A DNA stretch of 64,000 nt from Alphaproteobacteria bacterium (GTDB lineage Bacteria; Pseudomonadota; Alphaproteobacteria; Rs-D84), in the NCBI GenBank assembly GCA_017505705.1, contig JAFVOS010000005.1, positions 29,493-93,492 on the forward strand, read 5' to 3'. This document shows positions 3,455 to 34,778 of this stretch, piece after piece. Position numbers and translations under genes: made by a program. The notes beneath the pieces were generated by a model that was not told the origin of the DNA, ran no database searches, and saw only the letters and a list, made by a program, of their open reading frames with translations. Each line of letters opens with the position of its first letter. Position 1 is the first letter of the stretch.

Positions 3455-3627
3455 GCTTCTGTTTTGTTAACTTTCCATCTGGGGTTCGCCCAGGTGGGGC
3501 TTTGGTTCCTGCCCCAAAGAATTTTTTCTTTGTCTATGATGGCAATTAAGCAACATTTTCGTCACACCATCAGTCTTGGACAGAAATCTATTTTTGCGAC
3601 AATGGAATTTTCCATTGTCGCAATTAA

Positions 3628-4302: not shown

Positions 4303-4306
4303 GATA

Positions 4307-4738: not shown

Positions 4739-4857
4739 TTTTCACTCCGTTTTTTTTCGTTTGTGTCGTGGTACGATATGGCGTATCTACCACGTGTCCT
4801 GTGATTTTACTGAATATTTTTCAGAAAACCACAAAAAACTTTTTGACATTACGTCAA

Positions 4858-6794: not shown

Positions 6795-6826
6795 TAAGCA
6801 TGTAAAAAAAACGGAAGGAAGTTGGT

Positions 6827-8350: not shown

Positions 8351-8365
8351 TGTTGTGCAAAATGG

Positions 8366-18741: not shown

Positions 18742-18796
18742 ACCTAATTTTATTTCTTGCAAAAAACGCAAAGATAGATATAATTCATGTCGCAAT

Positions 18797-18870
18797 TGGG
18801 GTGTCGTCTAATGGTAGGACAAGAGATTTTGGTTCTCTTTATCATGGTTCGAATCCGTGCGCCCCAACCA
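18797..18870 (+). tRNA. trnQ: tRNA-Gln (anticodon TTG)
   Basis: TGGGGTGTCGTCTAATGGTAGGACAAGAGATTTTGGTTCTCTTTATCATGGTTCGAATCCGTGCGCCCCAACCA. Anticodon stem AGAGA/TCTCT with loop TTTTGGT. T-arm CATGG-TTCGAAT-CCGTG. CCA encoded. Followed by a terminator. Confidence 0.85.
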
Positions 18871-18877
18871 ATATTCA

Positions 18878-18900
18878 AACGCACCCTTGTGGTGCGTTTT
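18878..18900 (+). terminator. rho-independent terminator after tRNA-Gln
   Basis: CGCACC-cttgt-GGTGCG hairpin followed by TTTT. Confidence 0.75.
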
Positions 18901-19286
18901 AATATTGGCTTTGTTACGCCCGTTTGATTTGAAACATCGTCCGCCTTTGGCGTGACAGGTTCGACTATGAGTAAGCGAAAACAAGCCTTGCGTAGTTTGA
19001 GCGCTAACGAATGCGGCGCAGTGTCGGCTCAGCTGACCGAGCCAATCCGTGCGCAATTTTTTCAGTTCGAAAGTTAAATTTCCATTTTTTATCTCTTCGA
19101 ATACACTTTCGAACCGTTTATATCATGTAAACAAACATTCGAACCAACAACAATCTTATAAAACTAATGAGAATCTGCTCTAACTGGTCTTTTTATTCAA
19201 AGTGGTTGGGGTGTGCGGGCGAAATAAAATAATATTTACAATTTTGTTTTATTATTTTACACTAATTTCGGTGACAGGAGCAGGAT

Positions 19287-19973
19287 ATGGATGCTATCAA
19301 AAATATAAAAAAAGCATTTTTAAATTTGAAAAATAAAAATCGTTTTTTTGTGTCAGAGGCGGACTTTCAACATTCTTTTGCAATGGAGTTAGAAAAAATT
19401 TTTAATGGTACCGCAACCATTTTACTCGAGTTTCCAATAGAGCAAAATGGTCGTATAATTTATACTGATATTATGCTGGTTTATAAACAATATCTATACC
19501 CAATTGAACTGAAATATAAGACCAAAATTATTCCGTCAGAACAATTATACGGATTTACTAGTTTGCCAATAAAAAAGATATTAAAAAACCACAATGCCGT
19601 AGATATAAACGGCTATAATTTTTGGAAAGATATAAATCGCATAGAACAACTAGTAGAAAACAATCAAGTTGTTTCTGGGGTATGCATTATGATAACTAAC
19701 GATAAGTTTTATTGGACTGGGAATTGGAAAAATAATTCAAAGGGTTATCCTTTTAGAACTGTGCAAGGGAAATACCTTTATGGCAATTTAAAATGGCAAC
19801 ATAACGATTTAAACCATATTCCGAAATGGATTAAACAACATCCTGGTTTTGAAATAAAAAATGATTATGAATTCCTGTGGTGTAACTTTTGCGACACCGG
19901 TGATAAAAACGGTTTGTTCAAATCGTTGTTTATAGAAATCCCACAAAAAACGGATAGTAAACATGTCAAATGA
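19287..19973 (+). CDS. PD-(D/E)xK nuclease-like protein (islet gene 1 of 3)
   Basis: 228 aa with RBS AGGAGCAGG. Motif arrangement E (…SEADFQHSFAMELEKI…), then D (RIIYTDIMLV), then 12 residues to ExK (PIELKYK). This is the canonical restriction-endonuclease-fold catalytic pattern. Confidence 0.55.
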   Translation: MDAIKNIKKAFLNLKNKNRFFVSEADFQHSFAMELEKIFNGTATILLEFPIEQNGRIIYTDIMLVYKQYLYPIELKYKTKIIPSEQLYGFTSLPIKKILKNHNAVDINGYNFWKDINRIEQLVENNQVVSGVCIMITNDKFYWTGNWKNNSKGYPFRTVQGKYLYGNLKWQHNDLNHIPKWIKQHPGFEIKNDYEFLWCNFCDTGDKNGLFKSLFIEIPQKTDSKHVK

Positions 19974-20496
19974 TTATAAAGTATCACGAATTGGCAATGA
20001 AAAATCGCCTAAACTTGTAATTTTGTTATGTAATCCTGGTGGCAACCCAAAGTATTACAAACGCTTGGCAGAATACCCTATGGATAAGGATGGTTTTTAT
20101 AAACCAACTGGGATGAATTTACATATTTATCGTGAATATTGTGAATGGTGGGACAATATTTTGAAAAAGACGGATAAATTCGGGATAAAAGATACTGATA
20201 TTTTAGCGTTGGAATATTATCCATATCACACCAAACGCTCGAACGACAGCAAACATTGGAATTGGGATGATTTTGCACAAAAATCATTATCAAAAAATAA
20301 AGAATTATTATTAAAGCACATTGCCAATGGTGTTCCGGTATTTGGATATTACTATGGTTTTTGGTTAAATGATAAAGATGTTGGCGAACAATTATCAAAA
20401 TTAAATAAAAAACAATTTTGCAAAAGTTGTAATGGACTAGGGCAATCGTTAAAATTAAAAGATTTAGAAACCTGGCTGCAAACAATAACAGATTAA
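19963..20496 (+). CDS. hypothetical protein (islet gene 2 of 3), possible UDG-superfamily-like fold
   Basis: 177 aa. Its start overlaps the gene-1 stop by 11 nt, suggesting translational coupling. Motifs LLCNPGGN and EYYPYHTKRS loosely resemble motif A (G-x-N-P-G) and motif B of uracil-DNA-glycosylase-like enzymes. The match is weak. Confidence 0.4.
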   Translation: MSNDYKVSRIGNEKSPKLVILLCNPGGNPKYYKRLAEYPMDKDGFYKPTGMNLHIYREYCEWWDNILKKTDKFGIKDTDILALEYYPYHTKRSNDSKHWNWDDFAQKSLSKNKELLLKHIANGVPVFGYYYGFWLNDKDVGEQLSKLNKKQFCKSCNGLGQSLKLKDLETWLQTITD

Positions 20497-20498
20497 AA

Positions 20499-21137
20499 AT
20501 GCAAAAGACGAAAAAATCTTTATCAACATATATAATGGATGAAAATCATTTCAAAGATTTTGAATATGAATTTGATTACTGTATTATTCGCAAAGAAAAG
20601 GATTTTGATTATTTAGGTGGGACATTAACAAGTGCTTTGGCTGAATTTATAACTTTTAATGATAATGAAAGTTTAGCATATTTTCTTGCTCTGTTATTAC
20701 AATCAAAAATATTGCTTCCAATTTATATTTGCCCGCCAGGTAAAAATGATGAATATATTATAAAATTACCAGATTGTGAAAATGACAGTTATTTATATAT
20801 GAAAGATTCTAATATTATTCCACAAATAAAAACAGCCGATAATATCAGGTTTTTTAACGCGTTTTTATCTGTTCGTGAAATACATACAGTTGCATATAAT
20901 CATATGTTTTTATATATAGATTTTGAAACGGTATATAAATGGATAAAAAAACATCGCACAGAAATCGATACAATCGCATTTGATCCATTTGCAAAATATG
21001 ACTATGCTTGGTATATCAATGTCGATGACTTTATAAAACAAATTGAATTATTTAAAAAATTTATAAAAAATTATAAAGGCAAAAATATTATTTCAGATTT
21101 ACACACAATATCACTGCAAAAACACATGCGCAAATAG
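20499..21137 (+). CDS. hypothetical protein (islet gene 3 of 3)
   Basis: 212 aa, beginning 2 nt after the gene-2 stop. Acidic and aromatic-rich. No family recognised. Confidence 0.4.
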   Translation: MQKTKKSLSTYIMDENHFKDFEYEFDYCIIRKEKDFDYLGGTLTSALAEFITFNDNESLAYFLALLLQSKILLPIYICPPGKNDEYIIKLPDCENDSYLYMKDSNIIPQIKTADNIRFFNAFLSVREIHTVAYNHMFLYIDFETVYKWIKKHRTEIDTIAFDPFAKYDYAWYINVDDFIKQIELFKKFIKNYKGKNIISDLHTISLQKHMRK

Positions 21138-21322
21138 CCCGAATCTCGCTTGCCGACCCCAACCAGAAATTAAATCGCCCTTGTGGCGGTTTTATTTTTG
21201 GTCAGAGCCACTGTTCGTAATCTGCAACGTATGTTGCCGGTTCCACAATGAGTAGATTTGATAAGTGAAACGCTATCAAATCGTCAGGAATGCCCCGCAG
21301 GCATTTATGCCGAGGGAATTGA

Positions 21323-21338
21323 GTGCGCCCCAACCAAT
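21323..21338 (+). repeat. attR-like direct repeat of the tRNA-Gln 3' end (GTGCGCCCCAACCAAT)
   Basis: Exact 16-mer match to 18857-18872. Confidence 0.6.
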
Positions 21339-21517
21339 GAATTTTTGTTAGAAATCCGGCGCTTTTGTCGGATTTTTTAATGTTTTTTCCTTTACAACAA
21401 CTGATTTATTGAAAAATCTGGAGCCGAAAAGACGTCAAACAAAATTATTGAAATAATTTACGATTTGTGATATAATAACAAGTATGTCAGCGGACGTATA
21501 TGTCGGCTGTTTTTATT

Positions 21518-21546
21518 TGCTCTCGCTTTTTGCGAGAGCTTTTTTT
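21518..21546 (+). terminator. rho-independent terminator-like hairpin immediately upstream of the tail-fibre-like gene
   Basis: GCTCTCGC-ttttt-GCGAGAGC followed by TTTTTTT. It lies inside the ORF-track version of the downstream gene, which is why that start was moved. Confidence 0.6.
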
Positions 21547-21567: not shown

Positions 21568-23034
21568 ATGCAGAAAGTATCATATATGGGAAACGGTTTA
21601 ACAACCGAATTTACTTTTAATTTTCCCTATTTTGAAAATACAAATATCGTTGTCACTAAAAATGGTACAACAGCAACTGGATACAGCATCGTCGGAACAT
21701 CTGCTGGTTCAAATGCAGATATTCCATATACTGGTGGCAAAGTGGTATTTGAAATTGCGCCAACCAGTTTGGACAATATAACTATCGCACGCAGTTTGCC
21801 CTTGGTGCGTGTTGTAGACTATCAACCAACCGCTAAAATAACACCAATGCTTTTGAATCAAGACGCCAATTATCTGATGGAAGTATTGAAAGATATGCAA
21901 GATAAAATGGACACATTTTATGCAAAATACGAAGATATTGTAAACAAAGACGATATTCAAAATGTGTTATCCAAAATTTCGTATATCAGCCAGCAGCTAA
22001 GCAACGACAATATTATGATGAAGGATGATTTTTATTCACATATCACAAATTGTTTAACCCAAATTCCACAAAACATACACTTTGAATTAAACGATGGCAC
22101 ATTAACATTAAAAGCAGGTTCAAAAATATATGTCCCAAATGGCGTCGGAATATTTGATACAGTTACGATTGCAAATGATATCACCGCAACAAGAACAGAT
22201 AGTCAAAAATGTATGGTGTGGTATAGCCGTTATGAAAACATCATCAGAGTGTTTCCAATAAGCTTATTCTACTCTGGTGATACCGAACCTTCGCAATACT
22301 CATACATGTTCTGGTATGATACATTTAATAATAAATGTAAGATTACAAATAATAGTGGGACAACTTGGGGAGAAGGAATGTCTTTCCCATTGGCTCTTGT
22401 GTCCACAGACGGAACACAAATTTCAGCAATAGACCAAGTGTTTAACGGTTTTGGCTATATAGCACAAACTTTGTTTGTTCTACCCGGGGTTAAGGGATTA
22501 ATTCCAAATGGTAGAAATACTGATGGCACACTAAAAAGCACTTCTTTTTGTGTAGACTCAGTATTAACAACGCTCTTAACCACCGCAACGGCAAATAGCC
22601 CGCTGCTTTTAAAGTCGAATGCTGTTCAAGTTCTAGATTGCTCTTATAACGAAGCAACCAATTATAATTCAAATCCAGCCTATGCGATTGTTGGGGCAGT
22701 TACAACATCTTCCTCCCTAATAACATCTCTTAGACCTAAAGTGAATTTTCAGCTTCTTGACAGGAACGACAAGTTGACAACTATGCCAGATTATACAGCA
22801 GGCGTAAGCGTTTCAACTGGATATGTCACCGAATATCCCTGTTTTGTTCATGTTCGCCCAATTTGGAATGGAAATGTCTCTGATTTAACATCCCCATTTT
22901 CACAATCATTGGCTAAGAACACTTATGATAATTCGACTAAATTTGAAAATTCAGTATGTTTTATCTGTGATATTGGTGAAACAATCAGTTTCACAAATGC
23001 TACTTGTTATGTCTATCCATTAAAAGGAGTTTAA
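21568..23034 (+). CDS. phage tail-fibre-like / receptor-binding-like protein
   Basis: 488 aa from ATG 21568 with RBS AAAGGAG. The N-terminus MQKVSYMGNGLTTEFTFNFPYFENTNIVVTKNG resembles conserved N-terminal domains of phage tail fibre proteins. The rest is Ser/Thr/Asn-rich and beta-rich. It is followed by a small coupled gene. Confidence 0.4.
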   Translation: MQKVSYMGNGLTTEFTFNFPYFENTNIVVTKNGTTATGYSIVGTSAGSNADIPYTGGKVVFEIAPTSLDNITIARSLPLVRVVDYQPTAKITPMLLNQDANYLMEVLKDMQDKMDTFYAKYEDIVNKDDIQNVLSKISYISQQLSNDNIMMKDDFYSHITNCLTQIPQNIHFELNDGTLTLKAGSKIYVPNGVGIFDTVTIANDITATRTDSQKCMVWYSRYENIIRVFPISLFYSGDTEPSQYSYMFWYDTFNNKCKITNNSGTTWGEGMSFPLALVSTDGTQISAIDQVFNGFGYIAQTLFVLPGVKGLIPNGRNTDGTLKSTSFCVDSVLTTLLTTATANSPLLLKSNAVQVLDCSYNEATNYNSNPAYAIVGAVTTSSSLITSLRPKVNFQLLDRNDKLTTMPDYTAGVSVSTGYVTEYPCFVHVRPIWNGNVSDLTSPFSQSLAKNTYDNSTKFENSVCFICDIGETISFTNATCYVYPLKGV

Positions 23035-23035
23035 T

Positions 23036-23341
23036 ATGAAAAAATACGCAAGAATAGTTAACGAAGAAACGAAAGAGTGTTCTGTTGGTTTGGGTAAAAA
23101 CGTCAATTTTTATAAATCTGTTGGGTTGCAAGAAATGGACGTGGAATTGTCTTATGACGGCAGATGGTATGTTTTGGGGTTTGCCCCTGAAAAACCCGAG
23201 TCCACTTATGCAGAAAAACGTTTAAACCAATATCCACACATTGCTGATCAACTAGATATGATTTATTGGGATAAGATGAACGGAACAAATTTATGGCAAG
23301 AAAAAATTAGCGAAATTAAAAGTAAATATCCTAAAAATTAA
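23036..23341 (+). CDS. small protein coupled to the tail-fibre-like gene (possible tail fibre assembly chaperone)
   Basis: 101 aa. Starts 1 nt after the upstream stop. Ends at a bidirectional terminator. Confidence 0.35.
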   Translation: MKKYARIVNEETKECSVGLGKNVNFYKSVGLQEMDVELSYDGRWYVLGFAPEKPESTYAEKRLNQYPHIADQLDMIYWDKMNGTNLWQEKISEIKSKYPKN

Positions 23342-23398: not shown

Positions 23399-24589
23399 TC
23401 AAAGTTTAACATACGACTTCTTTTTGGTATAAAACTTCAACAACCATTTTACAAAATAGTCAGCAACAAGAGAGGCTAACAGACAAATTGCGATACTGAC
23501 GAATAAAACATTCAAATCTCCTTTTAAAAATGGTTTTTGCCATATATACTCATTCATAACAGCAATCATTGGGAAATGCATCAAATAAATTGGATATGAT
23601 AAATCACCTAGCCAAGCACTAAATTTATTATTTAGAAATCTGGAAAAGAAGCCTTCTTCAAACAAGAACGAGACAAAAATAATAATAAACAATATTTCCC
23701 AGAAAATAAATTCGCCAGCAGGTTTATGAAAAGACATATGATATACAAAAAAGAATAACGCTGCTATTTCAAACAAACCAAAAAGAAATTTCTTTTTCTT
23801 TGATACAATTCGTTTTGTTTCAAGTTTACGTTTTAAAAAAGCCCCTATCAATATTCCCAAACTTATTCCAGCTAATCCTTCTATCATACCATTAATCATA
23901 AATGGCATAGAAGCAATTGGTGCGGCCTTATAAAGAGTAGTTGAACCAGTGCCACGCACGATAAAACCGAACAAGGCAATAATTCCACAGACAAAAGCTA
24001 CTTTTTCCCACCTAAAATGACGTAGCGCATAGAAAAAGAATAAAGAGAGAACAAACAGCACACAAACATACCACGATGCAGCATTTTGAGACGTTTCTTG
24101 CATTAATCCCGCAGCATTCGTAACAAAAAACAGATTTAATGTATCAGGATATACCCTATAGGTGCCAATCAGAATATAAGGGATATATGAAAAAGCGAGT
24201 ATTGGCCACAGACGCAAAATACGTCGTTTGGCAAAAGCTTCTAAATCGTATTTCTTGAATCCTTCGCTATGATACAGAAAAAAGCCACTCATTATAAAAA
24301 AACTGAATACAATGAGCAATCCTGAATAACTGCTCATAACTTGCAATGAAGAAAATAGAGTCGACTCTTTATATTTGATCGTCAAAAAGGCCAAAAGATG
24401 TCCATACATAATCATAAGTGCAAACAGAAAACGTATAAAATCTATTTGATAAAAACGTTTTTTATGTTCTACACTCTGCGTATCATCACACGCTGTAGTA
24501 TCTGTTGATGCAGATGTGCTAATACCTGTGCCTGCGCACTCGTTTACATGTGCGGGGGGACAACATGTTGTTATTACTGTTTTTTTCAT
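23399..24589 (-). CDS. acyltransferase family 3 (OafA/OatA-like) integral membrane O-acyltransferase
   Basis: 396 aa, polytopic, with the motif RFYQIDFIRFLFALMIMYGH typical of the Acyl_transf_3 N-terminal region. Precedes the polysaccharide cluster. Confidence 0.7.
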   Translation of the reverse strand: MKKTVITTCCPPAHVNECAGTGISTSASTDTTACDDTQSVEHKKRFYQIDFIRFLFALMIMYGHLLAFLTIKYKESTLFSSLQVMSSYSGLLIVFSFFIMSGFFLYHSEGFKKYDLEAFAKRRILRLWPILAFSYIPYILIGTYRVYPDTLNLFFVTNAAGLMQETSQNAASWYVCVLFVLSLFFFYALRHFRWEKVAFVCGIIALFGFIVRGTGSTTLYKAAPIASMPFMINGMIEGLAGISLGILIGAFLKRKLETKRIVSKKKKFLFGLFEIAALFFFVYHMSFHKPAGEFIFWEILFIIIFVSFLFEEGFFSRFLNNKFSAWLGDLSYPIYLMHFPMIAVMNEYIWQKPFLKGDLNVLFVSIAICLLASLVADYFVKWLLKFYTKKKSYVKL

Positions 24590-24599
24590 GTTTTTCTCC

Positions 24600-25646
24600 T
24601 TATATTGCTTTAATTTTTACGGATTTGAACCCAATACCTAATTTTCTTGTATCATTACCAGCGTTTAAATCTTGGGGTGATACTGGATTTTTTATTATAA
24701 AATGCAACTTCAAAGAAATTCCTTTGATATTGCCTGCTGGAATATGTAATACCGTTTCTGGTTTTTCTTTACCAAAATCAAAATGCCAAGTTGCAATTTT
24801 TTTATCATTTAATAAAACATCAACATCTTGGGTTGGCCATTGTTCAGCAAGATATCCCTCAACATTGAAATCAACAACGACATCAGTATTAAAAGATAGT
24901 GGTAATTCTATAAAGACATCGTTTCCATTGCTCCACCGACCCCAGCCCTCTTTGACGGACAAGCCATAATTTTTGATATTATCGGTTGCAAAGTTATATT
25001 CTACTTCGCCATTGATAAATTCAGAAAAGATGCGTTTAAGAACCGCCCTATTTCCTAAATTGCCAGGCAAATCGTGATATAGCATAAGATAGATATGATC
25101 GTTAATTTTGAACCGACTAACGTCTGCCTGTTCACAATCAGCGCTATCTTGTACCAATAAAAAATCAATATCTTTATTTATAAATCGTGTTGTTAACAAA
25201 GACAAAGCCTGTTTTAATTCGTCTATTGATAAAAAATGCTTAATTCTTGTCACAAACACAAATAATATACGATCCCCAGTTTCAATATTTTCTATTAATC
25301 TTTTTGCACGTCTGGTTTGTTTTTCATAAAAAGAATCGTATTGCTTTTCAACACTTTCACCCCATTCAAAATCATGAAAATAATGCACGCCTGTCTTCGT
25401 ATTAATTACTCCACGATGCTCTTTATTTTCAGACCAGGTTTCTTTTAAATCTTGTAATTCAAACGCACCAGCAAAATCATTACAAATCATTTTTATTTTA
25501 CCAATAAAACCGCAATTGCCACATATATCTGTTTCTGCACCATTCCAATCAAACGGATAGCTTGCTTTACGAATGTCGCAATCACGCAAAGCCCCTGCTG
25601 TTGCACAAAATTCACCAAGCGGAATAACGACATCATATTTTTTCAT
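24600..25646 (-). CDS. DUF1796-like (putative papain-like cysteine peptidase fold) protein with a C-terminal beta-rich domain
   Basis: N-terminus MKKYDVVIPLGEFCATAGALRDCDIRKASYPFDW matches the DUF1796 signature (SLG..C…SYPFDW). Confidence 0.5.
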   Translation of the reverse strand: MKKYDVVIPLGEFCATAGALRDCDIRKASYPFDWNGAETDICGNCGFIGKIKMICNDFAGAFELQDLKETWSENKEHRGVINTKTGVHYFHDFEWGESVEKQYDSFYEKQTRRAKRLIENIETGDRILFVFVTRIKHFLSIDELKQALSLLTTRFINKDIDFLLVQDSADCEQADVSRFKINDHIYLMLYHDLPGNLGNRAVLKRIFSEFINGEVEYNFATDNIKNYGLSVKEGWGRWSNGNDVFIELPLSFNTDVVVDFNVEGYLAEQWPTQDVDVLLNDKKIATWHFDFGKEKPETVLHIPAGNIKGISLKLHFIIKNPVSPQDLNAGNDTRKLGIGFKSVKIKAI

Positions 25647-25672
25647 TTTTTCCCCTATGATTCATATATACA

Positions 25673-26755
25673 CTATTCTTTTGTCTTTTCAATCGCATTT
25701 GCCAACGCATCTAATTTTTTCCAAAATTGATGGTTTGAATCTATAATATCATCAGTATAAACAAAAATTATTCTTTTGGCCGATAAAATATTCTGTATAT
25801 CTGTGTCATTTAATGGGTTGTTCCCATAATGAACAACCATTCCATTATCTGAAAAGCCAGAATTACACAACATATAATTATATTCGTTTGAATAAGAATC
25901 GCCAATTACAATTGTTTTGTCGTGCCATCTGTGCGTTGCTAACATAATCGGCTTATAAAAGCTTTTATCATTACGTTTTGTAAAAAACAAATTTTGTAAA
26001 TTTGTTAAATCTTGCTCTGCAAAATACGGTTTTGGCGAGCTTTCAACACCCAGCCATTTAACGGGTGCCCATTTAAAATATTTTGCAGATTCTTGGAGTG
26101 TCTTGCCTGCACCATAATAATTCCAATGTATTCCACCGATTGGGAATGGCTGATATTCACCTTCTTCACGCAGTTTTTCCATCAAAGGCTGACTGTTATA
26201 TACTGGGATGCCCAAATCCTTGATACCAGATGCCAATTGTTCATGAACAGGACATTTGCCCAGGAAATATTTATAGCGCATTGGCAAATAATCATAATAA
26301 GTCAACGCCTTGCTGGGGGCTAAAACAAAATATATTTTTATTCCATGCCTTTGAGCATAATTCTGTAATTTTTCTAATTTTTCAAAATTGGGGGTTGGCA
26401 AACAATTTTTTGATACAGACTTAAACAAATATTTACCAAATAGATATCTGTGTTTACCTTCTATTATATTATCAAAATAACCTTTGTGTATAAGGCCAAA
26501 ATTAGCCCAATCATAAATTTGATTTTTTGATTTTAACATAAACTTTCGAAATGCAAAATGTGAATTCCACCATCTTTCAAATTCTGGCTGAAACTTACGT
26601 TCTGCAAAAGATTTATCTTGTATACTTGGTAATTCACTGACTGATTCAGAACCGTATATAATCGAAGTATCTTTGACTCCAACCATATATGTCATTGGCA
26701 AAAACAATAAACAAAACAGGGCTAAAACAAAAAATTTTTTATATCCGTTTGCCAT
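25673..26755 (-). CDS. AlgJ/AlgX/DHHW-like partner of MBOAT (polysaccharide O-acetylation accessory protein)
   Basis: 360 aa with an N-terminal membrane anchor. Located immediately downstream of the MBOAT gene, as in AlgI-AlgJ and DltB-DltD pairs. Contains an HRWHD segment. Confidence 0.5.
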   Translation of the reverse strand: MANGYKKFFVLALFCLLFLPMTYMVGVKDTSIIYGSESVSELPSIQDKSFAERKFQPEFERWWNSHFAFRKFMLKSKNQIYDWANFGLIHKGYFDNIIEGKHRYLFGKYLFKSVSKNCLPTPNFEKLEKLQNYAQRHGIKIYFVLAPSKALTYYDYLPMRYKYFLGKCPVHEQLASGIKDLGIPVYNSQPLMEKLREEGEYQPFPIGGIHWNYYGAGKTLQESAKYFKWAPVKWLGVESSPKPYFAEQDLTNLQNLFFTKRNDKSFYKPIMLATHRWHDKTIVIGDSYSNEYNYMLCNSGFSDNGMVVHYGNNPLNDTDIQNILSAKRIIFVYTDDIIDSNHQFWKKLDALANAIEKTKE

Positions 26756-26771
26756 CCTTTAACTCCCCATA

Positions 26772-28205
26772 TTAAAATCTGAAATATATAAACGGTGAAA
26801 ATGTTGATATCATCGCAAACATATAAACAACAACAAATAATACAATTAGCAACAAACTTTCTGTTTTAGAATAGCGAAACTTGTCATATTTTCCGTTAAA
26901 TATAGGATATGACAAAATAATACCAATCATCAAAATCAACAAATTACTGTATGTTAAAAAGTCTGTTGCAGTATAAAAACTATTTGTTGGAGCGTTTGGA
27001 TTGCCAGTAAACATTATTTTTAAATAATCTTTGGCATAAGACAAACTATCTGCACGGAAAAACACCCAACCGACCATAACAACCAACCATGTGTACATGT
27101 TTAATACAATATCACCAAGTTTTACCTTTGGTAAATGCCAATGCTGCACCTTGTCGAGCCAACGACCCCACACACCACGTTCCAAGACAAGCCAGGTCCC
27201 ATGGTAAAGGCCCCAGACAATAAAACTCCAGGTTGCACCATGCCACAAACCACACAGCCCAAAAACAATATACAAATTCAAATATGTACGCCATTTACCT
27301 TTTCTGTTACCACCAAGCGGGATATAAAGATAATCCCTGAACCATGAAGACAACGAAATGTGCCACCTGCGCCAAAAATCTCTGATACTATTGGCACAAT
27401 ATGGATAATTAAAGTTTTCCAGAAATCTAAAATTAAATATGCGCCCTAAGCCAATTGCCATATCTGAATATCCACTGAAATCAAAAAATATTTGCAACGT
27501 ATAGGCTACAATACCAACCCATGCAAACAATGTGGGTATTGAGGCAACCGCACTGCCAAAAATTTTATCTGCAATAAAAGCCATTTGATCTGCAATCAAG
27601 ACTTTTTTAGCCAAACCAATGACAAAACGTCTGGCACCAATAAATATATTATCCAAACTCGTTTTTCTGTTATGCAAATCTTCTTCTATGGTCTGATACC
27701 GAACAATAGGCCCGGCAATTAACTGCGGAAACAATGAAACATATGTAGCCAAACTTGCAAAACTTTTTTGCGCAGGAACCTGTTTTCTGTACACATCAAT
27801 TAAATAAGACATTATCTGGAAAACATAAAAAGAAATACCAATTGGCAATGCAATTTGTGGAATTGTCGCAGGTGCAAAATTTAATGTTTCTAAAACTAAA
27901 TTCATATTACCCAGGAAAAACATCCAATATTTATAAAAGAATAATGCAGATAAATTTAAAACTATACCTGATACCAGCAACCACTTTCTTTTTTTGCCAT
28001 CATTTTTTTCTAATAAAATGCCAATCCCCCACGAGATCGCAATAAGACCAAGCATTACAAGCACAGCCTTTGGTTCCCCCCATGCATAGAAGAACAAACT
28101 GGCTATTAGTAAAACCCAATTGCGCAATCTTTCCTGAGCCAAGAAATACAACCCCAAAGTTGTGGGTAAAAAAAACGCTAAAAACAATGCTGATGAAAAG
28201 ACCAT
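26772..28205 (-). CDS. MBOAT-family membrane-bound O-acyltransferase (AlgI/DltB-like)
   Basis: 477 aa, polytopic. Characteristic MBOAT region including the conserved His in …GLCGLWHGATWSFIVWGLYHG…. Confidence 0.8.
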   Translation of the reverse strand: MVFSSALFLAFFLPTTLGLYFLAQERLRNWVLLIASLFFYAWGEPKAVLVMLGLIAISWGIGILLEKNDGKKRKWLLVSGIVLNLSALFFYKYWMFFLGNMNLVLETLNFAPATIPQIALPIGISFYVFQIMSYLIDVYRKQVPAQKSFASLATYVSLFPQLIAGPIVRYQTIEEDLHNRKTSLDNIFIGARRFVIGLAKKVLIADQMAFIADKIFGSAVASIPTLFAWVGIVAYTLQIFFDFSGYSDMAIGLGRIFNFRFLENFNYPYCANSIRDFWRRWHISLSSWFRDYLYIPLGGNRKGKWRTYLNLYIVFGLCGLWHGATWSFIVWGLYHGTWLVLERGVWGRWLDKVQHWHLPKVKLGDIVLNMYTWLVVMVGWVFFRADSLSYAKDYLKIMFTGNPNAPTNSFYTATDFLTYSNLLILMIGIILSYPIFNGKYDKFRYSKTESLLLIVLFVVVYMFAMISTFSPFIYFRF

Positions 28206-28223
28206 TTTTCCTATATCTTGTTA

Positions 28224-29132
28224 TTAATACTGTTTTACCATTTCTGATAAAATTGCATAAACAGGCTTTGTTTTGAATTCGTTATTAATAAACGCATTGC
28301 ATTTTGTTGGATCGCCAACCAAGCGCATAATTTCATTTTTACGTACAAATTCTGGGTTTACACTGATTTTTGGTGAATATTTAGTAATGTCTTGCAACAT
28401 CCCAAGAATATCATTCCCAGTCGTACCATGCCCTGCACACAAATTCAGCACACGTGGTTCAACATTTGGTTGCAGCGCCAATTTACAGAAGAACTTGGCA
28501 GCAAATTCAATATCAACAAAGTCACGAAATGTGTTCATATTGCCAATTTGCAATTCTGGTTGTTTTGATGCAAACGCCTTGACCAGTTTCGGTATAAGGA
28601 AACTTTCGTTTTGACCAACACCAATCATATTAAACGGACGAACTATCCTTATATCCAGTTTATCCGTATAATTTTTAGAAATATATTCCATAACCATTTT
28701 AGAGAAAGAATAATGATTTGCCGGATTATAGGGAGTTTCTTCGGTATCAAAATCAACCCCAGAATTACCATAAACCCCCGCAGTAGATGTCAAAATAACA
28801 CGTGTTCCGTTATCACACACATCATATAAAGCATCTAATAAATTTTCAGAACCATGAACATTAATGTCATACAATTCACCAACATTGCCATAAACGACAT
28901 TTGCTATTGCGGCCAAATGAATAACCGTACTTGGTTTAAATTCAGAAACCGTTTTCTTCAAATTTTCTTTATCCAGTAAATTTACGGTTCTAATAGATAC
29001 GTTTTCACCAAAAGAAGAATTGATATTACGATCAAAACCCATAATTTTAATATCTTTGTTGGTTAATAATTCTTTGGTTATATGACGACCAACAAATCCA
29101 TTTATTCCTGTAATTAATATACGTGCTGACAT
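28224..29132 (-). CDS. NAD-dependent epimerase/dehydratase family protein, possibly GDP-4-dehydro-6-deoxy-D-mannose reductase (Rmd-like)
   Basis: 302 aa extended SDR. GxxGxxG motif at the N-terminus (ITGINGFVGRH) and YxxxK (YSFSKMV). Adjacent to the gmd cluster. Confidence 0.65.
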   Translation of the reverse strand: MSARILITGINGFVGRHITKELLTNKDIKIMGFDRNINSSFGENVSIRTVNLLDKENLKKTVSEFKPSTVIHLAAIANVVYGNVGELYDINVHGSENLLDALYDVCDNGTRVILTSTAGVYGNSGVDFDTEETPYNPANHYSFSKMVMEYISKNYTDKLDIRIVRPFNMIGVGQNESFLIPKLVKAFASKQPELQIGNMNTFRDFVDIEFAAKFFCKLALQPNVEPRVLNLCAGHGTTGNDILGMLQDITKYSPKISVNPEFVRKNEIMRLVGDPTKCNAFINNEFKTKPVYAILSEMVKQY

Positions 29133-29134
29133 TT

Positions 29135-31618
29135 TTAATTCTCCATAAGTTTGTGTAATACATCATTAATATTTTTGGCACATTCTTCCCATGTGGTGTT
29201 ATGCCATTTCTTTTTAATTGCGGCTTCACGTTGTTTTAACGCCCGGGTATTTGTGTAATAGAACATTATCTTTTCTGCCCATTCAACCGGGTCGTATGGG
29301 TTGGCATAATCTATGATGTCCCCACCAATTTCTAGCAGTGACGGCGTGTCAGATGCCAAACAGAATTTACCATAATTTAAACTTTCTGGTAATGTTAAGG
29401 ACCAACCCTCATAGAAAGATGGCAAACATGTGAAAATACAATTTTGATATAAAATATCTAATTCATCATCTGTCGGCGTTATCAACATAACCTTGTTGCG
29501 TATACGATTGTCAACATCAATAACATGTCGAAAATGTTCTGTTTTCCACCCTGGGTGTCCACATATAACAATTTGTGGCAATTTTTCATATTTTTTAGCG
29601 CTACGCTGTAATTCAAGATATGCTTCGTACAAGACTTCTTGATTTTTGCGTGCCTCAATAGTGCCGACCGACAAAATAAAGTCGCCAGTTATTCCATATT
29701 TTTTAAACACCGATTCTTTTTGTTTTTGTGTATATTTGTGCGAAACAATATCCGAACCCCATTTTAATGCGAATGACTTGCCTGTGGTTAGATTGTTATT
29801 TGTTTGATATTTTTCACCATCTTTCTGTGCAGTCTGCCCACCATAAAATATATAATCAGATAAGGCATACATTTTTTCAAGAAATTCTGGATATGCCTTA
29901 ACCCGTTCTTCTGGATGAGTATGTGGAACAGTTATTGGGGTTAAATCATATATTACGTTACAATACGTAAAACCAGTATTTTTATGATGCTTTATCAAAT
30001 TATCATAAGATGCATTATCATAACCAACCCCCGCTGACAAAACGACATCGCCTTTCTTAAATGGCAAAACGTTTTTAGTCGTATACCCCCGTATAGATTC
30101 TCGTGTTTTTACGACCGCCTTGTCTAAACTTTCTTTGCCTAGCAAACAAGATAGTTGTTTATGAGATAATTCACAATAAACCCCTTGGTTCATCCAAAAA
30201 TATTTTATGTTTTGATTGTATTTGTGTAAATGTCTAGCTAATAACATCTGAGTACGTGGAATTCCAGACAAACCTGCACTATACCACAAAAGGCTGATAT
30301 CATAATAAAGTGTTGGCACATTATTCGTTACCTGTTCTTCATTAAATTCCTTATCACGAACGGATACCAAGCTGTCATACAAACTCTGTGTAGATTCTTT
30401 CCATGAAATGGGTTTAAAATTTGTAGTAACTTTTTGTTCCCATTCGGCAATCTTGTCTGGATTATTCATAAACTTTTCTATAGCATCTGCCCAGTCTTTC
30501 GCATGCTCTGGGTTAATAAAATAAGCACAATCGTTGCCAACTTCCCTTAATGGTGGGGTATCAGACGTCAAACACAATTTGCCATACTGTAATGTCTCAA
30601 GCAAAACAACGCTGTACCCTTCATATAATGATGGCAATACAGCAAACGTACAATTATTATAAAGTGCATTTAATTCTTCATCGCTGCACCCCATGATTTT
30701 TACATAATCTTTGGTTAATAAATTGTTCAACATATTGTCTTGCAATTCATTATTGGCTAATTTTCTGCCCACAATCACAAGTTGCGGAATGTTTTTTGCA
30801 CCACGCTGTTTTAACTGGCAATATGCTTGGTATAAGATTTTATAATTCTTTTTATGATCAAAAGAACCAATTGCTAAAATATATGGTTTCTTTACACCAA
30901 GTGATTCTAAAACTTCATCTGCGTCACGCTTAAAAAGCTGATTTTTCGTATCACCGCCATATTTCAACCAATGACCTTCGGGAATATTTAAATCTTTTTC
31001 TTTGAAATATTTTTCGCTGTCTATTTGTGCAGTATGACCACAATAAACAGCCGCACAACAGTTCGTGGAAATCCAATACAAATATTCGTCAAATAAAGAA
31101 TCCGCAGGAAAATAGAGATGACGTAAATTATCCTTAATCATAACCAAATCATAAATCGTATAAACCAATTTAAAATCTTGTAATCTGCTTCTTATTCGTG
31201 AATAAAACTCCTCTTTTCTGGTTCCAAACCAACCACACGAATATACAACATCGCCATCACTATATGGATATGTTAGATATCTGTTTCTTGAGATATTACG
31301 TGGTTTTAAATAATGACGTTTGAACCGGAATATTTCCCATGCCAATTTTTTACAGATTTTATCATATATGCGATTACAAGTCTGTGACTTGCGTTTTTGA
31401 TATTTTCTGTAATCGTCATTTATATTTTGTGATTTGAATAACCATCTCAATTCAGATTTTTTAACTTCACGAAAGCCATAATCTGTCAAGACGGAAAAAC
31501 GTATGGATGGATCAATTTCATGCAAATTTTTTGCCCGCATCAATTCTGCACGAACAATACCAACCACATTACCCTTGTGTTGTGTAAGACTGTTTGTTAA
31601 ATCCATCCATATTGTCAT
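29135..31618 (-). CDS. tandem two-domain GT4-family glycosyltransferase (WbdA-like architecture)
   Basis: 827 aa with two repeated GT4-like halves (…SDTPPLREVGNDCAYFINP… and …SDTPSLLEIGGDIIDYANP…). Confidence 0.7.
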   Translation of the reverse strand: MTIWMDLTNSLTQHKGNVVGIVRAELMRAKNLHEIDPSIRFSVLTDYGFREVKKSELRWLFKSQNINDDYRKYQKRKSQTCNRIYDKICKKLAWEIFRFKRHYLKPRNISRNRYLTYPYSDGDVVYSCGWFGTRKEEFYSRIRSRLQDFKLVYTIYDLVMIKDNLRHLYFPADSLFDEYLYWISTNCCAAVYCGHTAQIDSEKYFKEKDLNIPEGHWLKYGGDTKNQLFKRDADEVLESLGVKKPYILAIGSFDHKKNYKILYQAYCQLKQRGAKNIPQLVIVGRKLANNELQDNMLNNLLTKDYVKIMGCSDEELNALYNNCTFAVLPSLYEGYSVVLLETLQYGKLCLTSDTPPLREVGNDCAYFINPEHAKDWADAIEKFMNNPDKIAEWEQKVTTNFKPISWKESTQSLYDSLVSVRDKEFNEEQVTNNVPTLYYDISLLWYSAGLSGIPRTQMLLARHLHKYNQNIKYFWMNQGVYCELSHKQLSCLLGKESLDKAVVKTRESIRGYTTKNVLPFKKGDVVLSAGVGYDNASYDNLIKHHKNTGFTYCNVIYDLTPITVPHTHPEERVKAYPEFLEKMYALSDYIFYGGQTAQKDGEKYQTNNNLTTGKSFALKWGSDIVSHKYTQKQKESVFKKYGITGDFILSVGTIEARKNQEVLYEAYLELQRSAKKYEKLPQIVICGHPGWKTEHFRHVIDVDNRIRNKVMLITPTDDELDILYQNCIFTCLPSFYEGWSLTLPESLNYGKFCLASDTPSLLEIGGDIIDYANPYDPVEWAEKIMFYYTNTRALKQREAAIKKKWHNTTWEECAKNINDVLHKLMEN

Positions 31619-31619
31619 A

Positions 31620-32678
31620 TTATTTCACCTTTGCGTTCAATTGTTTCAACATCAATTCCTGTTGTGCCAATTTTAAATCTTCGCAAACCATTTCTTTTGC
31701 CAAAGATTTCCAGTCGTATGTTGGTTTCCACCCCAGTTCTGTTTTGGCTTTGGTTGGATCACCCAATAATAAATCAACTTCGGCAGGGCGGAAGAATTGT
31801 GGATCAACCGCAACAACAGTTTTTCCAGTTGCCTTATCAATTGCGTGTTCTTTAACACCTGTGCCAGACCATTCCAGGTCAAAGCCTGCTTCGGCAAATG
31901 CAACCTTTACAAAATCACGAATTGACGTTGTGACACCTGTTGCCAAAACATAATCAGACGGTTTGTCTGCCTGTAAAATGCGCCACATACCTTCGACATA
32001 ATCTTTGGCATGGCCCCAATCACGCTTAGAGTCCATATTGCCCAGATATAAACAATCTTGCAAACCTTGTTTGATACGTGCGGCCGCTAATGTGATTTTG
32101 CGTGTCACGAAATTATCACCACGACGTGGGCTTTCGTGATTAAATAAAATACCATTGCATGCAAACATATCGTATGATTCACGATAATTTACAGTAATCC
32201 AATACCCATATAATTTTGCAACACCGTACGGTGAACGTGGGTAAAATGGTGTTTTTTCAGATTGAATTGGCTCTTGAATTAAACCGAATAATTCAGAAGT
32301 GGAAGCTTGATAAAAACGAGTTTTTTTATCCAGACCATTTGTATGAATTGCTTCCAACAATCTTAACACACCTATTGCGTCTGACTCTGCGGTAAATTCA
32401 GGACAATCCCAAGAAATTTTAACATGACTTTGTGCAGCCAGATTGTATATTTCGTCTGGTTGTATTTCGCGAACTAATCTATTTAAATTCGTAGAATCTG
32501 TCATATCACCATAATGCAAATGAAGTTTATTTTTAATATGGTCAATACGTCCAGTATTCGGCGATGCAGAACGACGAATAATACCATGGACGCTATAACC
32601 CTTTTCCAACAGTAATTCCGCCAAGTAAGATCCGTCTTGACCTGTGATACCCGTAATCAATGCAACCTTATTTGTCAT
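31620..32678 (-). CDS. gmd: GDP-mannose 4,6-dehydratase
   Basis: 352 aa. N-terminus [39 protein letters not shown] is a typical GMD start. Full-length similarity to Gmd. Confidence 0.9.
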
Positions 32679-32697
32679 GTTTTTTTTTCCTTTTTTT

Positions 32698-34769: not shown

Positions 34770-34778
34770 AGCATTACC

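What the first reader, a model, noticed from the sequence alone, without database searches (positions are those of the whole stretch)
18857..21342. Decayed genomic islet at tRNA-Gln bounded by direct repeats of the tRNA 3' end
The 3'-terminal 16 nt of tRNA-Gln (GTGCGCCCCAACCAAT, 18857-18872) recur exactly at 21323-21338. A second, more degenerate copy (CCCCAACCA at 21157-21165) is followed by a degenerate duplicate of the post-tRNA terminator. The 2.4 kb in between is far more AT-rich than the flanking core genes. It carries three tightly coupled genes and no integrase or transposase. This is the classic signature of a tRNA-targeting integrative element that has since lost its mobility genes. 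The two nested repeat copies suggest two successive integrations or a tandem array.
Basis: seen in the sequence. Interest (0 to 1): 0.75.

Follow-up and report, generated by a model that had tools for sequence, protein, structure and literature searches.

The report
Gene-cassette stack attached to tRNA-Gln
The repeats are real, but they mark a stack of small integrase-less insertion units that pile up at the end of the glutamine tRNA gene in a whole group of gut bacteria, and one unit carries three genes that are probably an anti-phage defence module.

Summary
The 16-nt tRNA-Gln 3' end recurs exactly at 21323-21338. A degenerate copy plus terminator sits at 21157-21192. The three genes have 29% G+C and no integrase is present.

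The 16-nt pair does not bound the three genes. Relatives (L006, L088, L110) have the second copy about 175 nt after the tRNA with no genes between.

Comparison with 120 related loci, from gut Alphaproteobacteria of the Candidatus Enterousia type, shows a stack of units:
- module A, 18871-19053
- a gene cassette, 19054-21165
- module B, 21166-21338
- a prophage-like remnant from 21339

The cassette has a conserved GTTCGAA-rich platform and 22-bp inverted repeats (19203-19224 and 21144-21165) around the cargo. The same frame holds other cargo in at least 14 relatives. Indel pairs show whole units inserted exactly after the tRNA's CCA, flanked by 6-9-nt repeats. Module B has a covariation-supported fold.

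The cargo is a putative PD-(D/E)xK nuclease, a distant Brig1/UDG-like glycosylase and an unknown partner. In one relative an Mrr-type restriction enzyme replaces the nuclease. The recombinase is unidentified. I rate this a new variant of tRNA-linked tandem integration.

The parts
18797..18870 (+). tRNA-Gln(UUG). This is the anchor and insertion point of the stack. Its T-loop carries GGTTCGAATCC and its 3' end is CCCCAACCA.
   Evidence: ARAGORN. Rfam tRNA, 57.7 bits. Promoter-like TTGCAA-16-TATAAT at 18757-18784.
18868..18908 (+). Long hairpin or terminator that starts within the tRNA's CCA (CCAATATTCAAACGCACC / GGTGCGTTTTAATATTGG). It is the left end of unit 1.
   Evidence: Inverted repeat I15, 18 nt, 94% complementary. 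The same sequence follows the tRNA in L005, L006, L035, L046 and others.
18871..19053 (+). Unit 1, 'module A': hairpin, then a GC-rich body (0.51 G+C) containing GGTTCGAC, then a truncated copy of the tRNA 3' end (AATCCGTGCGC, 19043-19053).
   Evidence: 89-96% identical in L005, L024, L035, L046, L064 and L111. L064 and L111 show the complete form ending in CCGTGCGCTCCAACCA.
19054..19202 (+). Unit 2 'platform': AT-rich leader with GTTCGAA(A/T) sites at 19065 (+), 19108-19114 (-) and 19138-19144 (-). The last reads TGGTTCGAAT, as in the tRNA T-loop.
   Evidence: Four TTCGAA within 78 nt. The sites sit at -137, -94 and -65 from the left inverted repeat in most cassettes. The motif is about 9-fold enriched downstream of tRNA-Gln.
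19203..19224 (+). Left inverted repeat of the cassette, TGGTTGGGGTGTGCGGGCGAAA.
   Evidence: (I10). Identical 22-mer in L054 and L080. The family is found in 27 of 103 relatives.
19235..19263 (+). Promoter-like site (TTTACA-17-TACACT) just inside the left repeat, upstream of ORF1.
   Evidence: The homologous leader in L090 and L008 reads TTTACA...TATAAT. This is a consensus match only.
19287..19973 (+). ORF1 (228 aa), a putative PD-(D/E)xK nuclease.
   Evidence: Invariant E48, D61 and E74-L-K76 across 37 homologues. Weak NERD (7 of 37), HSDR_N_2 (2) and REase_MTES_1575 (1) hits in family members. An Mrr-type REase occupies this position in L009.
19963..20496 (+). ORF2 (177 aa), a UDG-superfamily-like protein distantly related to the anti-phage glycosylase Brig1. 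It is the constant gene of the cargo.
20499..21137 (+). ORF3 (212 aa), partner of ORF2 with unknown function.
21144..21165 (+). Right inverted repeat of the cassette (TCTCGCTTGCCGACCCCAACCA).
   Evidence: (I10). It aligns to the real tRNA 3' end of L006 (window 21157-21338 against L006 11486-11669, 87.6%).
21166..21338 (+). Unit 3, 'module B': terminator (21172-21192), then a structured body, then an exact copy of the tRNA 3' end (21323-21338).
   Evidence: Terminator. 23 distinct instances align. 21 pairs are 95.4% paired, 14 pairs carry compensatory changes, and 0 of 500 shuffles reach the observed score. It lies directly after the tRNA in L006, L088 and L110.
21339..21381 (+). Terminator that follows copy 3. 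It is the left end of an older unit, and in L031 it follows the tRNA directly.
   Evidence: Terminator at 21350-21377. 93% identical over 43 nt to L031 positions 78-120, which are followed there by an ORF with a weak DUF6538 hit.
21568..23341 (+). Prophage-like remnant: a tail-fibre-like gene (21568-23034) and a small phage-family ORF (23036-23341).
   Evidence: phrog_1640 tail protein, E=9e-15. phrog_9114, E=8e-12. N-terminus 35% identical to Yersinia podophage proteins.

Best explanation
Interval 18871-21338 is the tRNA-proximal end of a hypervariable, integrase-less stack of insertion units. The stack is anchored on the 3' end of tRNA-Gln(UUG) throughout a clade of gut and rumen Alphaproteobacteria (Candidatus Enterousia and relatives).

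Shown:
- Units begin right after the tRNA's CCA with their own hairpin or terminator.
- Units end with a copy of the tRNA end, with core CAACCA or CCCCAACCA.
- New units enter next to the tRNA and push older ones outward.
- Two unit kinds occur. The first is a ~160-190-nt gene-less module with a conserved fold; here these are A (truncated) and B. The second is a gene cassette built as terminator, GTTCGAA platform, 22-bp left inverted repeat, cargo, then 22-bp right inverted repeat ending in the core.
- The three genes are the cargo of one cassette. In the window this cassette has lost its own leading terminator and is fused to the truncated end of module A.

Inferred:
- Insertion is site-specific recombination at the tRNA acceptor/T-loop region, carried out by a recombinase supplied in trans. 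The GTTCGAA repeats, which mimic the T-loop, and the inverted repeats would be its binding sites.
- Homologous recombination between the conserved frames then reshuffles cargo.
- The cargo is an anti-phage module aimed at modified DNA. The UDG/Brig1-like ORF2 would excise a modified base, and the PD-(D/E)xK ORF1 (Mrr in a relative) would cut the DNA. The role of ORF3 is unknown.
For: Clade and sampling:
- Identification of the clade.
- 120 loci share the same tRNA.

Insertion polymorphisms with exact ends:
- L054 against the window, L005 and L046: a 692-nt unit flanked by the 9-nt repeat CCCCAACCA.
- L023 against L008, L057 and L109: a 779-nt unit flanked by CAACCA.
- L068 against L109: a 900-nt unit (all).

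Empty and partly empty sites:
- L031.
- L006, where window 21157-21338 aligns with the tRNA end plus module B.

Frequency among relatives:
- 28 of 103 relatives carry extra direct tRNA-end copies, mostly spaced 160-193 nt.
- 27 carry the inverted-repeat motif and 14 carry inverted-repeat pairs.

Cassette frame:
- It surrounds different cargo, in either gene orientation, with 0.27-0.36 G+C.
- The two arms are 93.7% complementary and 5 positions covary.
- The platform sites sit at fixed offsets and the motif is enriched 9-fold.

Module B:
- Fold supported by covariation.

Cargo function:
-.
- Precedent for defence glycosylases, including UDG-like ones in AT-rich integron cassettes: PMC11078745 and bioRxiv 10.1101/2025.10.29.685425.
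- Precedent for stacking at a tRNA, with newer elements pushing older ones inward: tycheposons, bioRxiv 10.1101/2020.12.28.424599.
Against: - No recombinase was identified. No tyrosine-recombinase motif occurs in the window or in any of the 132 loci. No Phage_integrase appears among the 25 Pfam families listed (of 54 matched) for 65 representative downstream ORFs.
- The only candidates, in L031 and L028, are truncated ORFs with a sub-threshold DUF6538 hit.
- No circular or extrachromosomal form was seen, and there are no matches in viral contigs.
- The 6-9-nt repeats and the mosaic joints (for example GTGCGC fused to the platform at 19053/19054) could arise by homologous or illegitimate recombination alone.
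- The window's right inverted repeat is degenerate, with about 6 of 22 mismatches to the left arm.
- PADLOC finds nothing.
Confidence: 0.55

Rival explanations
1. One reading: one decayed tRNA-integrating island bounded by the 16-nt direct repeats at 18857 and 21323. It once carried an integrase and lost it.
For: - An exact 16-nt repeat.
- Low-G+C cargo.
- An intact tRNA at one end.
- L031 shows an integrase-like ORF next to the same tRNA.
Against: - Copy 3 with its ~130-nt body lies directly after the tRNA in relatives that lack the genes.
- The genes sit inside a separate inverted-repeat frame that recurs with other cargo.
- The interval is a mosaic of at least 3 units of different composition.
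- No comparable unit in 120 loci holds an integrase.
Confidence: 0.07
2. A recombination hot spot with no dedicated recombinase. The modules, platforms and terminators are conserved functional sequences next to tRNA-Gln, such as small RNAs, terminators or regulatory sites. Cargo is exchanged between strains by transformation or conjugation followed by homologous recombination in these conserved frames. This is the logic of the Neisseria 'minimal mobile elements' (my own knowledge).
For: - There is no integrase anywhere.
- Conserved frames of 150-190 nt flank the variable cargo.
- Homology between the window and L005 ends inside the left inverted repeat, with different cargo beyond.
- Module B is under structural selection, so it probably has a function of its own.
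- The genomes encode VirB8-10 type IV secretion genes.
- Hybrid modules exist, such as the A/B chimera in L054.
Against: - Whole units are inserted exactly at the CCA with 6-9-nt repeats.
- Tandem arrays of 2-3 different modules each end in the same tRNA-end copy.
- That copy matches each genome's own acceptor variant, C or T.
- The inverted-repeat arms covary.
- All four points are more easily explained by site-specific events.
Confidence: 0.22
3. An integron-like capture system. Each boundary (tRNA-end core, long hairpin, inverted copy) would be a folded single-strand recombination site analogous to attC. Gene-less modules would be empty cassettes, and tRNA-Gln would play the part of attI.
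For: - Cassettes are arranged in series and each is separated by a repeat-bounded element.
- The hairpins begin in the CCA (I15).
- The boundary repeats are imperfect inverted repeats with small bulges.
- Sites are conserved in structure rather than sequence, and wobble pairs point to one strand: U-G at 52:109 in 19 of 23 sequences.
- Arrays without a nearby integrase are known for integrons as CALINs (PMC4889954).
- UDG-like defence genes occur in integron cassettes.
Against: - The canonical attC core boxes (RYYYAAC and GTTRRRY) are not met consistently. I checked this by eye on the sequences.
- No IntI was found.
- The cassettes carry their own promoter-like sites and terminators.
- The inverted repeats lie 0.4-2.2 kb apart around the cargo, or about 250-300 nt apart around the platform. 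Both distances are outside the attC size range.
- No attC covariance model was available to run.
Confidence: 0.1
4. The gene-less modules are small RNA genes linked to tRNA-Gln. Their tRNA-like 3' ends would serve RNA processing or stability, not recombination, so the 'repeat' would be a functional RNA feature.
For: - Strong covariation supports a fold on the tRNA-sense strand.
- Each module ends with the tRNA acceptor 3' strand plus a terminator.
- Nucleotide identity of 85-95% exceeds the roughly 78% seen in neighbouring coding DNA.
Against: - No Rfam family matches.
- No promoter-like site lies on the + strand within or just upstream of module B, and it starts right after a terminator.
- No 5' partner for the acceptor strand is conserved.
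- The modules vary in presence, order and copy number like mobile units.
- This reading does not exclude the best explanation.
Confidence: 0.15

Closest known systems
Tandem accretion of integrative elements at tRNA genes; cis-mobilizable elements (CIMEs) and decayed islands. Reviews: PMC5704250, PMC6323972.
   Same: - Units are flanked by att-like repeats of a tRNA 3' end.
- Units lack integration genes.
- Units are stacked in tandem, with the newest next to the intact tRNA.
   Different: - CIMEs are deletion derivatives of identifiable ICEs or IMEs that share their att sites. Here no parent element or integrase is seen in about 120 loci.
- The units are tiny (0.17-2.3 kb) and have a conserved internal frame of platform plus 22-bp inverted repeats.
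Tycheposons of Prochlorococcus (bioRxiv 10.1101/2020.12.28.424599).
   Same: - Hypervariable islands lie next to tRNA genes.
- Partial tRNA copies separate successive integrations.
- Incoming elements push older ones into the island.
- Cargo includes defence and niche genes.
   Different: - Tycheposons are defined by their own tyrosine recombinase (with replication modules); none is present here.
- The host is a different phylum.
- The paper passages I read mention neither inverted-repeat-framed cassettes nor structured gene-less modules.
Integron cassette arrays and CALINs (PMC4889954).
   Same: - Small cassettes of mostly one to three genes are arranged in series at one site.
- Repeat-bounded, structure-conserved elements separate the cassettes.
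- Arrays can lack a nearby integrase.
- Cargo is AT-rich, and a UDG-like defence gene occurs, as reported for integrons.
   Different: - There are no IntI, no attI and no canonical attC boxes.
- The anchor is a tRNA gene.
- Cassettes have their own promoter-like sites and terminators.
- Repeat geometry and size differ.
Mobile insertion cassettes and MITE-like elements: terminal inverted repeats of an insertion sequence around passenger genes, without a transposase (my own knowledge).
   Same: 22-bp terminal inverted repeats frame passenger genes, and no transposase is present.
   Different: - Only one copy occurs in 64 kb, and always at the same locus.
- There is no consistent target-site duplication.
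- The right repeat overlaps the tRNA-end core.
Brig1 and other anti-phage DNA glycosylases (PMC11078745; bioRxiv 10.1101/2025.10.29.685425).
   Same: - ORF2 has a UDG-like predicted fold.
- ORF2 shows distant profile links to Brig1.
- It lies in an AT-rich mobile context.
- A relative pairs it with a modification-dependent (Mrr-type) nuclease.
   Different: - ORF2 is far below the Brig1 family threshold.
- It is shorter: 177 aa against a profile of 254.
- It always travels with ORF3 and usually with a nuclease gene, whereas Brig1 is described as working alone.
- Substrate and activity are unknown.

Membership tests
tRNA-integrating genomic island / integrative element (tyrosine-integrase type) | Intact tRNA gene at one end and a direct repeat of its 3' part at the other | tested here: met
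   The tRNA is at 18797-18870. Direct copies lie at 21157-21165 and 21323-21338. They bound different stacked units, not one island.
tRNA-integrating genomic island / integrative element (tyrosine-integrase type) | Integrase gene within the element, or a recognisable remnant of one | tested here: not met
   ORF1-3 have no integrase domain. No recombinase motif occurs in the window or in the 132 loci. A candidate exists only in L031 and L028, outside such units, and it is weak.
tRNA-integrating genomic island / integrative element (tyrosine-integrase type) | Presence/absence polymorphism with ends at the att core | tested here: met
   Indel pairs among relatives place ends exactly at the CCA or core. 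L031 is empty for the whole stack and L006 lacks units 1-2. No exact empty site for the three-gene unit alone was found.
tRNA-integrating genomic island / integrative element (tyrosine-integrase type) | Excision to a circular form and re-integration | not testable with these tools
   This needs read-level or experimental data.
Integron / CALIN cassette array | attC sites with R'' RYYYAAC and R' GTTRRRY boxes, 57-141 nt | tested here: not met
   By inspection, the boundaries read CCCCAAC or CCACAAC and GTTGGGG or GTTGTGG, and downstream partners such as GTTCGTG do not fit (sequences). The attC covariance model could not be run.
Integron / CALIN cassette array | Integron integrase (IntI) adjacent to the array. 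This defines an integron, not a CALIN. | tested here: not met
   Upstream neighbours are an HD-domain protein, MarR and an RND pump. No recombinase motif was found.
Transposase-less inverted-repeat element (mobile insertion cassette / MITE-like) | Terminal inverted repeats | tested here: met
   The 22-bp arms are 93.7% complementary across 13 cassettes and show covariation. The window's own pair is 78% complementary (I10).
Transposase-less inverted-repeat element (mobile insertion cassette / MITE-like) | Target-site duplication and multiple dispersed copies | tested here: not met
   The flanks show no consistent duplication. The motif occurs once in the 64-kb window. All instances lie downstream of tRNA-Gln, which is also where the sampling was anchored.
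Brig1-type anti-phage DNA glycosylase (UDG superfamily) | Match to the family profile at its curated threshold | tested here: not met
   ORF2 scores 18 bits against a cut-off of 230. Intermediates P0178 and P0180 score 25-28 bits. ORF2 is a distant relative at most, not a member.
Brig1-type anti-phage DNA glycosylase (UDG superfamily) | UDG alpha/beta fold | tested here: inconclusive
PD-(D/E)xK nuclease superfamily (ORF1) | Conserved D...(D/E)xK catalytic motif in the expected arrangement | tested here: met
   E48, D61 and E74-L-K76 are invariant in 37 sequences. Support is weak: NERD, HSDR_N_2 and REase hits in 10 of 37 members. The fold was not modelled.
tmRNA (including the two-piece alphaproteobacterial form) for modules A/B | Recognition by ARAGORN or Rfam; alanine-type acceptor with a 5' partner strand | tested here: not met
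   No tmRNA call was made. The 3' strand is that of tRNA-Gln, and no conserved 5' partner exists.

The most novel reading that the evidence does not exclude
Gut Alphaproteobacteria of the Enterousia type carry an undescribed cassette-capture system anchored on tRNA-Gln. Small units, each with a T-loop-mimicking GTTCGAA platform, 22-bp inverted repeats and structured ~175-nt gene-less modules, would be inserted one after another at the tRNA's CCA. The recombinase would be unlinked and not yet identified, possibly acting on folded single strands as in integrons. This would give a reduced-genome symbiont an integron-like store of defence and niche genes. The cargo here would be a new three-gene defence system built around a Brig1-like glycosylase.
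Probability: 0.2. Interest if true: 0.85.

Novelty: new variant of a known kind. Interest (0 to 1): 0.6.

Why it matters
If the units are truly mobile, this is a compact, integrase-less cassette system. It accounts for much of the strain-level gene-content variation seen at one tRNA locus in an uncultured, reduced-genome gut lineage, with 333 ORFs in mostly small clusters across about 120 loci.

It offers two things:
- A defined sequence frame (core, platform, inverted repeats) with which to mine further cargo.
- A test case for how tRNA-linked islands grow without resident integrases.

The structured modules are candidates for a new RNA family or a new kind of recombination site. The ORF1-3 cargo is a testable candidate defence system. 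It pairs a rare UDG/Brig1-like protein (only 30 cluster representatives among 1.84 billion) with interchangeable nucleases (PD-(D/E)xK or Mrr).

If instead the site is only a homologous-recombination hot spot, the finding is an ordinary variable region next to a tRNA.

Tried and rejected
- tmRNA or two-piece tmRNA for modules A and B. This was prompted by GGTTCGAC, an 'ANE...' reading frame and the CCA end. I rejected it because ARAGORN and Rfam find nothing, the frame is not conserved between the window and L005, and the acceptor is of the Gln type with no 5' partner.
- A small protein in module A (36 aa). A one-base indel in L005 breaks the frame.
- An invertible segment between the inverted repeats. 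Shared cargo is always in the same orientation in different loci.
- A phage or satellite origin. There are no matches in IMG/VR to the tRNA end plus terminator, the module B core, the inverted-repeat motif or the L031 ORF.
- Integrase hunts. A motif scan of all loci and of the window, and a Pfam scan of 65 representative ORFs, were all negative. The Pfam listing was cut at 25 of 54 families, so a weak hit could be hidden.
- Sequence searches of ORF1-3 profiles against the PDB found nothing.
- hhalign of the ORF1 family against the L009 Mrr protein found nothing.
- The ORF3 fold search was uninformative.
- A third tRNA-end copy near the end of the low-G+C region (~36 kb). None exists; only a 3-mismatch hit inside a gene at 32999.
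- Target-site duplication at the inverted repeats. ATTCAAA-like flanks occur in some loci but not in L047, L072 or L080.

Full report
**Observation**

ARAGORN and Rfam place tRNA-Gln(UUG) at 18797-18870 on the + strand. The 16-mer GTGCGCCCCAACCAAT occurs exactly at 18857-18872 and 21323-21338. The 9-mer CCCCAACCA occurs four times in 64 kb, all within 18862-21336, against about 0.7 expected by chance. The degenerate direct copy at 21157-21165 is followed by a terminator-like hairpin at 21172-21192. Copy 3 is followed by another at 21350-21377.

The three ORFs are 19287-19973, 19963-20496 and 20499-21137, and they are tightly packed. The cargo has 0.288 G+C, against 0.405 in the core genes to the left. 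None of the ORFs has an integrase or transposase domain.
- The interval is not uniformly AT-rich. 18871-19053 has 0.51 G+C and 21166-21338 has 0.46.
- The right flank is not core. It holds a tail-fibre-like gene, a small phage-family ORF and a low-G+C polysaccharide cluster that runs to about 35.9 kb.

**Context**

The window is a chromosome. It carries rplKAJL-nusG, tRNA-Trp, VirB8-10 genes, an RND pump, MarR and an HD-domain protein upstream of the tRNA. Identical contigs come from gut metagenomes. The nearest named genomes are a Candidatus Enterousia MAG (L005) and an alphaproteobacterial MAG from deer rectum (L006). Coding DNA is about 77-80% identical to them.

**The 16-nt repeat does not bound the genes**

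In L006 the tRNA and its hairpin are followed directly by about 115 nt and then GTGCGCCCCAACCAAT plus a terminator. Window 21157-21338 aligns to L006 11486-11669 at 87.6%. The window's 'degenerate copy 2' therefore corresponds to the real tRNA end of L006. L005 instead shares window 18871-19211 right after its tRNA (89.5%). After that point it has different genes.

A scan of metagenome contigs with the 60-nt tRNA body returned 120 further loci. In L031 the tRNA is followed directly by the terminator that follows copy 3 in the window, at 93% identity over 43 nt.

**Architecture across relatives**

Two kinds of unit recur downstream of this tRNA.

(i) Gene-less modules.
- Each module is a hairpin or terminator, then a body, then a copy of the tRNA 3' end.
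- They are present in 28 of 103 loci that have at least 400 nt of downstream sequence.
- They occur in one to three tandem copies, mostly spaced 160-193 nt.
- The terminal copy matches each genome's own acceptor variant, CGCCCCAA or CGCTCCAA.
- In some instances it extends back into the T-loop (GAATCCGTGCGC...).
- Window 18871-19053 is one such module (A), cut off after GTGCGC. Window 21166-21338 is another (B).

(ii) Gene cassettes.
- Each cassette is an AT-rich platform, then a 22-bp left inverted repeat (consensus TGGTTGTGGTGTGTGGGCGAAA), then cargo of 0.4-2.2 kb with one to three genes on either strand, then a right inverted repeat ending in CAACCA, then a terminator.
- Inverted-repeat pairs are seen in the window and in 14 of the 103 related loci with enough downstream sequence.
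- The two arms are 93.7% complementary over 13 distinct cassettes, and five positions covary. For example, L047 and L072 carry a different variant in both arms.
- The platform carries GTTCGAA(A/T) sites at fixed distances from the left repeat: -137 on the + strand, -94 and -65 on the - strand.
- That motif, which is also the tRNA's T-loop sequence, occurs at 1.39 per kb in the 1.5 kb downstream of the tRNA, against 0.16 per kb elsewhere in the loci.
- In the window, the frame is 19054-19202 (platform), 19203-19224 (left repeat) and 21144-21165 (right repeat).
- The left repeat is the only match in 64 kb to the consensus with up to 3 mismatches.

**Evidence for insertion at the tRNA end**

Pairs of loci with well-aligned flanks differ by whole units that start immediately after the CCA and end at the core:
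- L054 carries 692 nt that are absent from the window, L005 and L046. The insertion is flanked by CCCCAACCA.
- L023 carries 779 nt that are absent from L008, L057 and L109. The insertion is flanked by CAACCA.
- L068 carries 900 nt that are absent from L109 (all).

The newest unit is therefore next to the tRNA and older ones lie further out. The same pattern is described for tycheposons at Prochlorococcus tRNA islands. Read this way, the window holds, from the tRNA outward:
- module A
- the three-gene cassette, fused to the truncated end of A
- module B
- an older prophage-like remnant that begins with the L031-type terminator

**Module B is structured**

Twenty-three distinct instances align. 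RNAalifold predicts 16 pairs, 12 of them with compensatory changes. For a 21-pair structure, which adds the GCAAC/GUUGC hairpin:
- 95.4% of cells are paired.
- 14 pairs have changes on both sides.
- No shuffle out of 500 reaches the observed covariation.
- Slid controls give 27-41% pairing.
- A U-G pair in 19 of 23 sequences points to the tRNA-sense strand.

No Rfam family matches. I cannot tell whether this is an RNA or a folded DNA site.

**No recombinase found**

- No ORF in the window or in the 132 loci has the tyrosine-recombinase box-II motifs.
- 65 representative downstream ORFs give no Phage_integrase among the Pfam families listed, which were 25 of 54.
- L031 and L028 have, just after the tRNA, a truncated ORF with a sub-threshold DUF6538 hit (E=1e-4), which may be an integrase N-terminus.
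- Viral contigs hold none of the motifs.

Downstream gene content across the loci is very diverse. It includes a LysR-like regulator, a deaminase-like protein, a GNAT-like protein and secreted proteins (judged by eye from the sequences). It also includes methyltransferases, a short-chain dehydrogenase, a GT8 glycosyltransferase, ankyrin repeats and an Mrr-type enzyme.

**The cargo**

- ORF2-ORF3 recur at 85-95% nucleotide identity in L008, L009, L090 and L115.
- The gene in front of them varies. It is ORF1 here, an Mrr-type restriction enzyme in L009, and nothing in L090.
- An ORF1-ORF2 pair without inverted repeats lies elsewhere in another genome, L012.
- The ORF1 family has invariant E48, D61 and E74-x-K76. 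Ten of its 37 members give weak hits to PD-(D/E)xK families.
- ORF2 gives a weak Brig1 hit.
- Its family is tiny, with 30 representatives in 1.84 billion proteins. Two of its most distant members hit Brig1 at about 1e-6.
- ORF3 remains unknown.

Defence glycosylases, including UDG-like ones in AT-rich integron cassettes, have been described. I therefore infer, but have not shown, a defence module against phages with modified DNA.

**Verdict**

The stated boundaries and the 'decayed island that lost its integrase' model do not fit.

The best account is a clade-wide, integrase-less stack of framed units at tRNA-Gln. The mechanism is unresolved between two options. One is site-specific recombination by a recombinase supplied in trans. 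The other is homologous exchange within the conserved frames.

I rate it a new variant of a known kind. There is a minority chance, about 0.2, that the framed cassettes and structured modules represent a distinct capture system.

Noticed in passing
window 21568-23341: A tail-fibre-like gene (T7-type N-terminal domain; phrog_1640, E=9e-15) and a small phage-family ORF sit alone between the tRNA-Gln stack and a polysaccharide cluster, with no other phage genes nearby. This is probably a prophage remnant or a co-opted receptor-binding protein.
   Followed up: partly
window 23399-35888: A low-G+C (0.34) minus-strand polysaccharide cluster. It encodes Acyl_transf_3, MBOAT plus an AlgX-like SGNH protein, GT4 glycosyltransferases, GDP-mannose 4,6-dehydratase, an epimerase, a cytidylyltransferase and a Stealth phosphotransferase. 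It is absent from the syntenic positions in L005 and L006, so the variable region next to tRNA-Gln extends about 17 kb beyond the finding.
   Followed up: partly
window 18870-47520, compared with L006 11494-12937: In L006, tRNA-Gln and tRNA-Glu(CUC) lie only 1.4 kb apart. In the window they are 28.6 kb apart, and the interval includes core genes (pyrG at 40298-41872, fmt, rmuC). In L005, tRNA-Glu lies upstream. The locus is a rearrangement hot spot between genera.
   Followed up: partly
window 20823-20839 and 21503-21519: A perfect 17-nt inverted repeat (CAAATAAAAACAGCCGA / TCGGCTGTTTTTATTTG) lies 663 nt apart. One arm is inside ORF3 and the other is just before the terminator-like hairpin upstream of the tail-fibre-like gene. 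It is unexplained.
   Followed up: no
window 36276-40255: Two adjacent ORFs of 311 and 1015 aa have no Pfam match. They lie at the point where host-like G+C resumes.
   Followed up: no
window 6159-10747: VirB8-, CagX/VirB9- and TrbI/VirB10-like type IV secretion genes lie next to the rplKAJL-nusG-tRNA-Trp cluster. They are conserved in L001 and L002. This is a possible DNA-transfer route for the cassettes.
   Followed up: no
L031 positions 211-1125 and L028 (coordinates counted from the tRNA start): A truncated ORF lies immediately downstream of tRNA-Gln, with a weak DUF6538 hit (E=1e-4). The two copies are 39% identical. This is the only candidate integrase seen at this site, and both contigs end before any catalytic domain.
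   Followed up: partly
L115 positions 1-4800 and L008 5830-8830: These arrays hold three or more consecutive framed cassettes. Cargo includes a short-chain dehydrogenase (Pfam adh_short), a GNAT-like protein (judged by eye), a small GIY-YIG protein and the ORF2-ORF3 pair. Each cassette is separated by a right repeat, a terminator and a new platform. L054 has an A/B hybrid module.
   Followed up: partly
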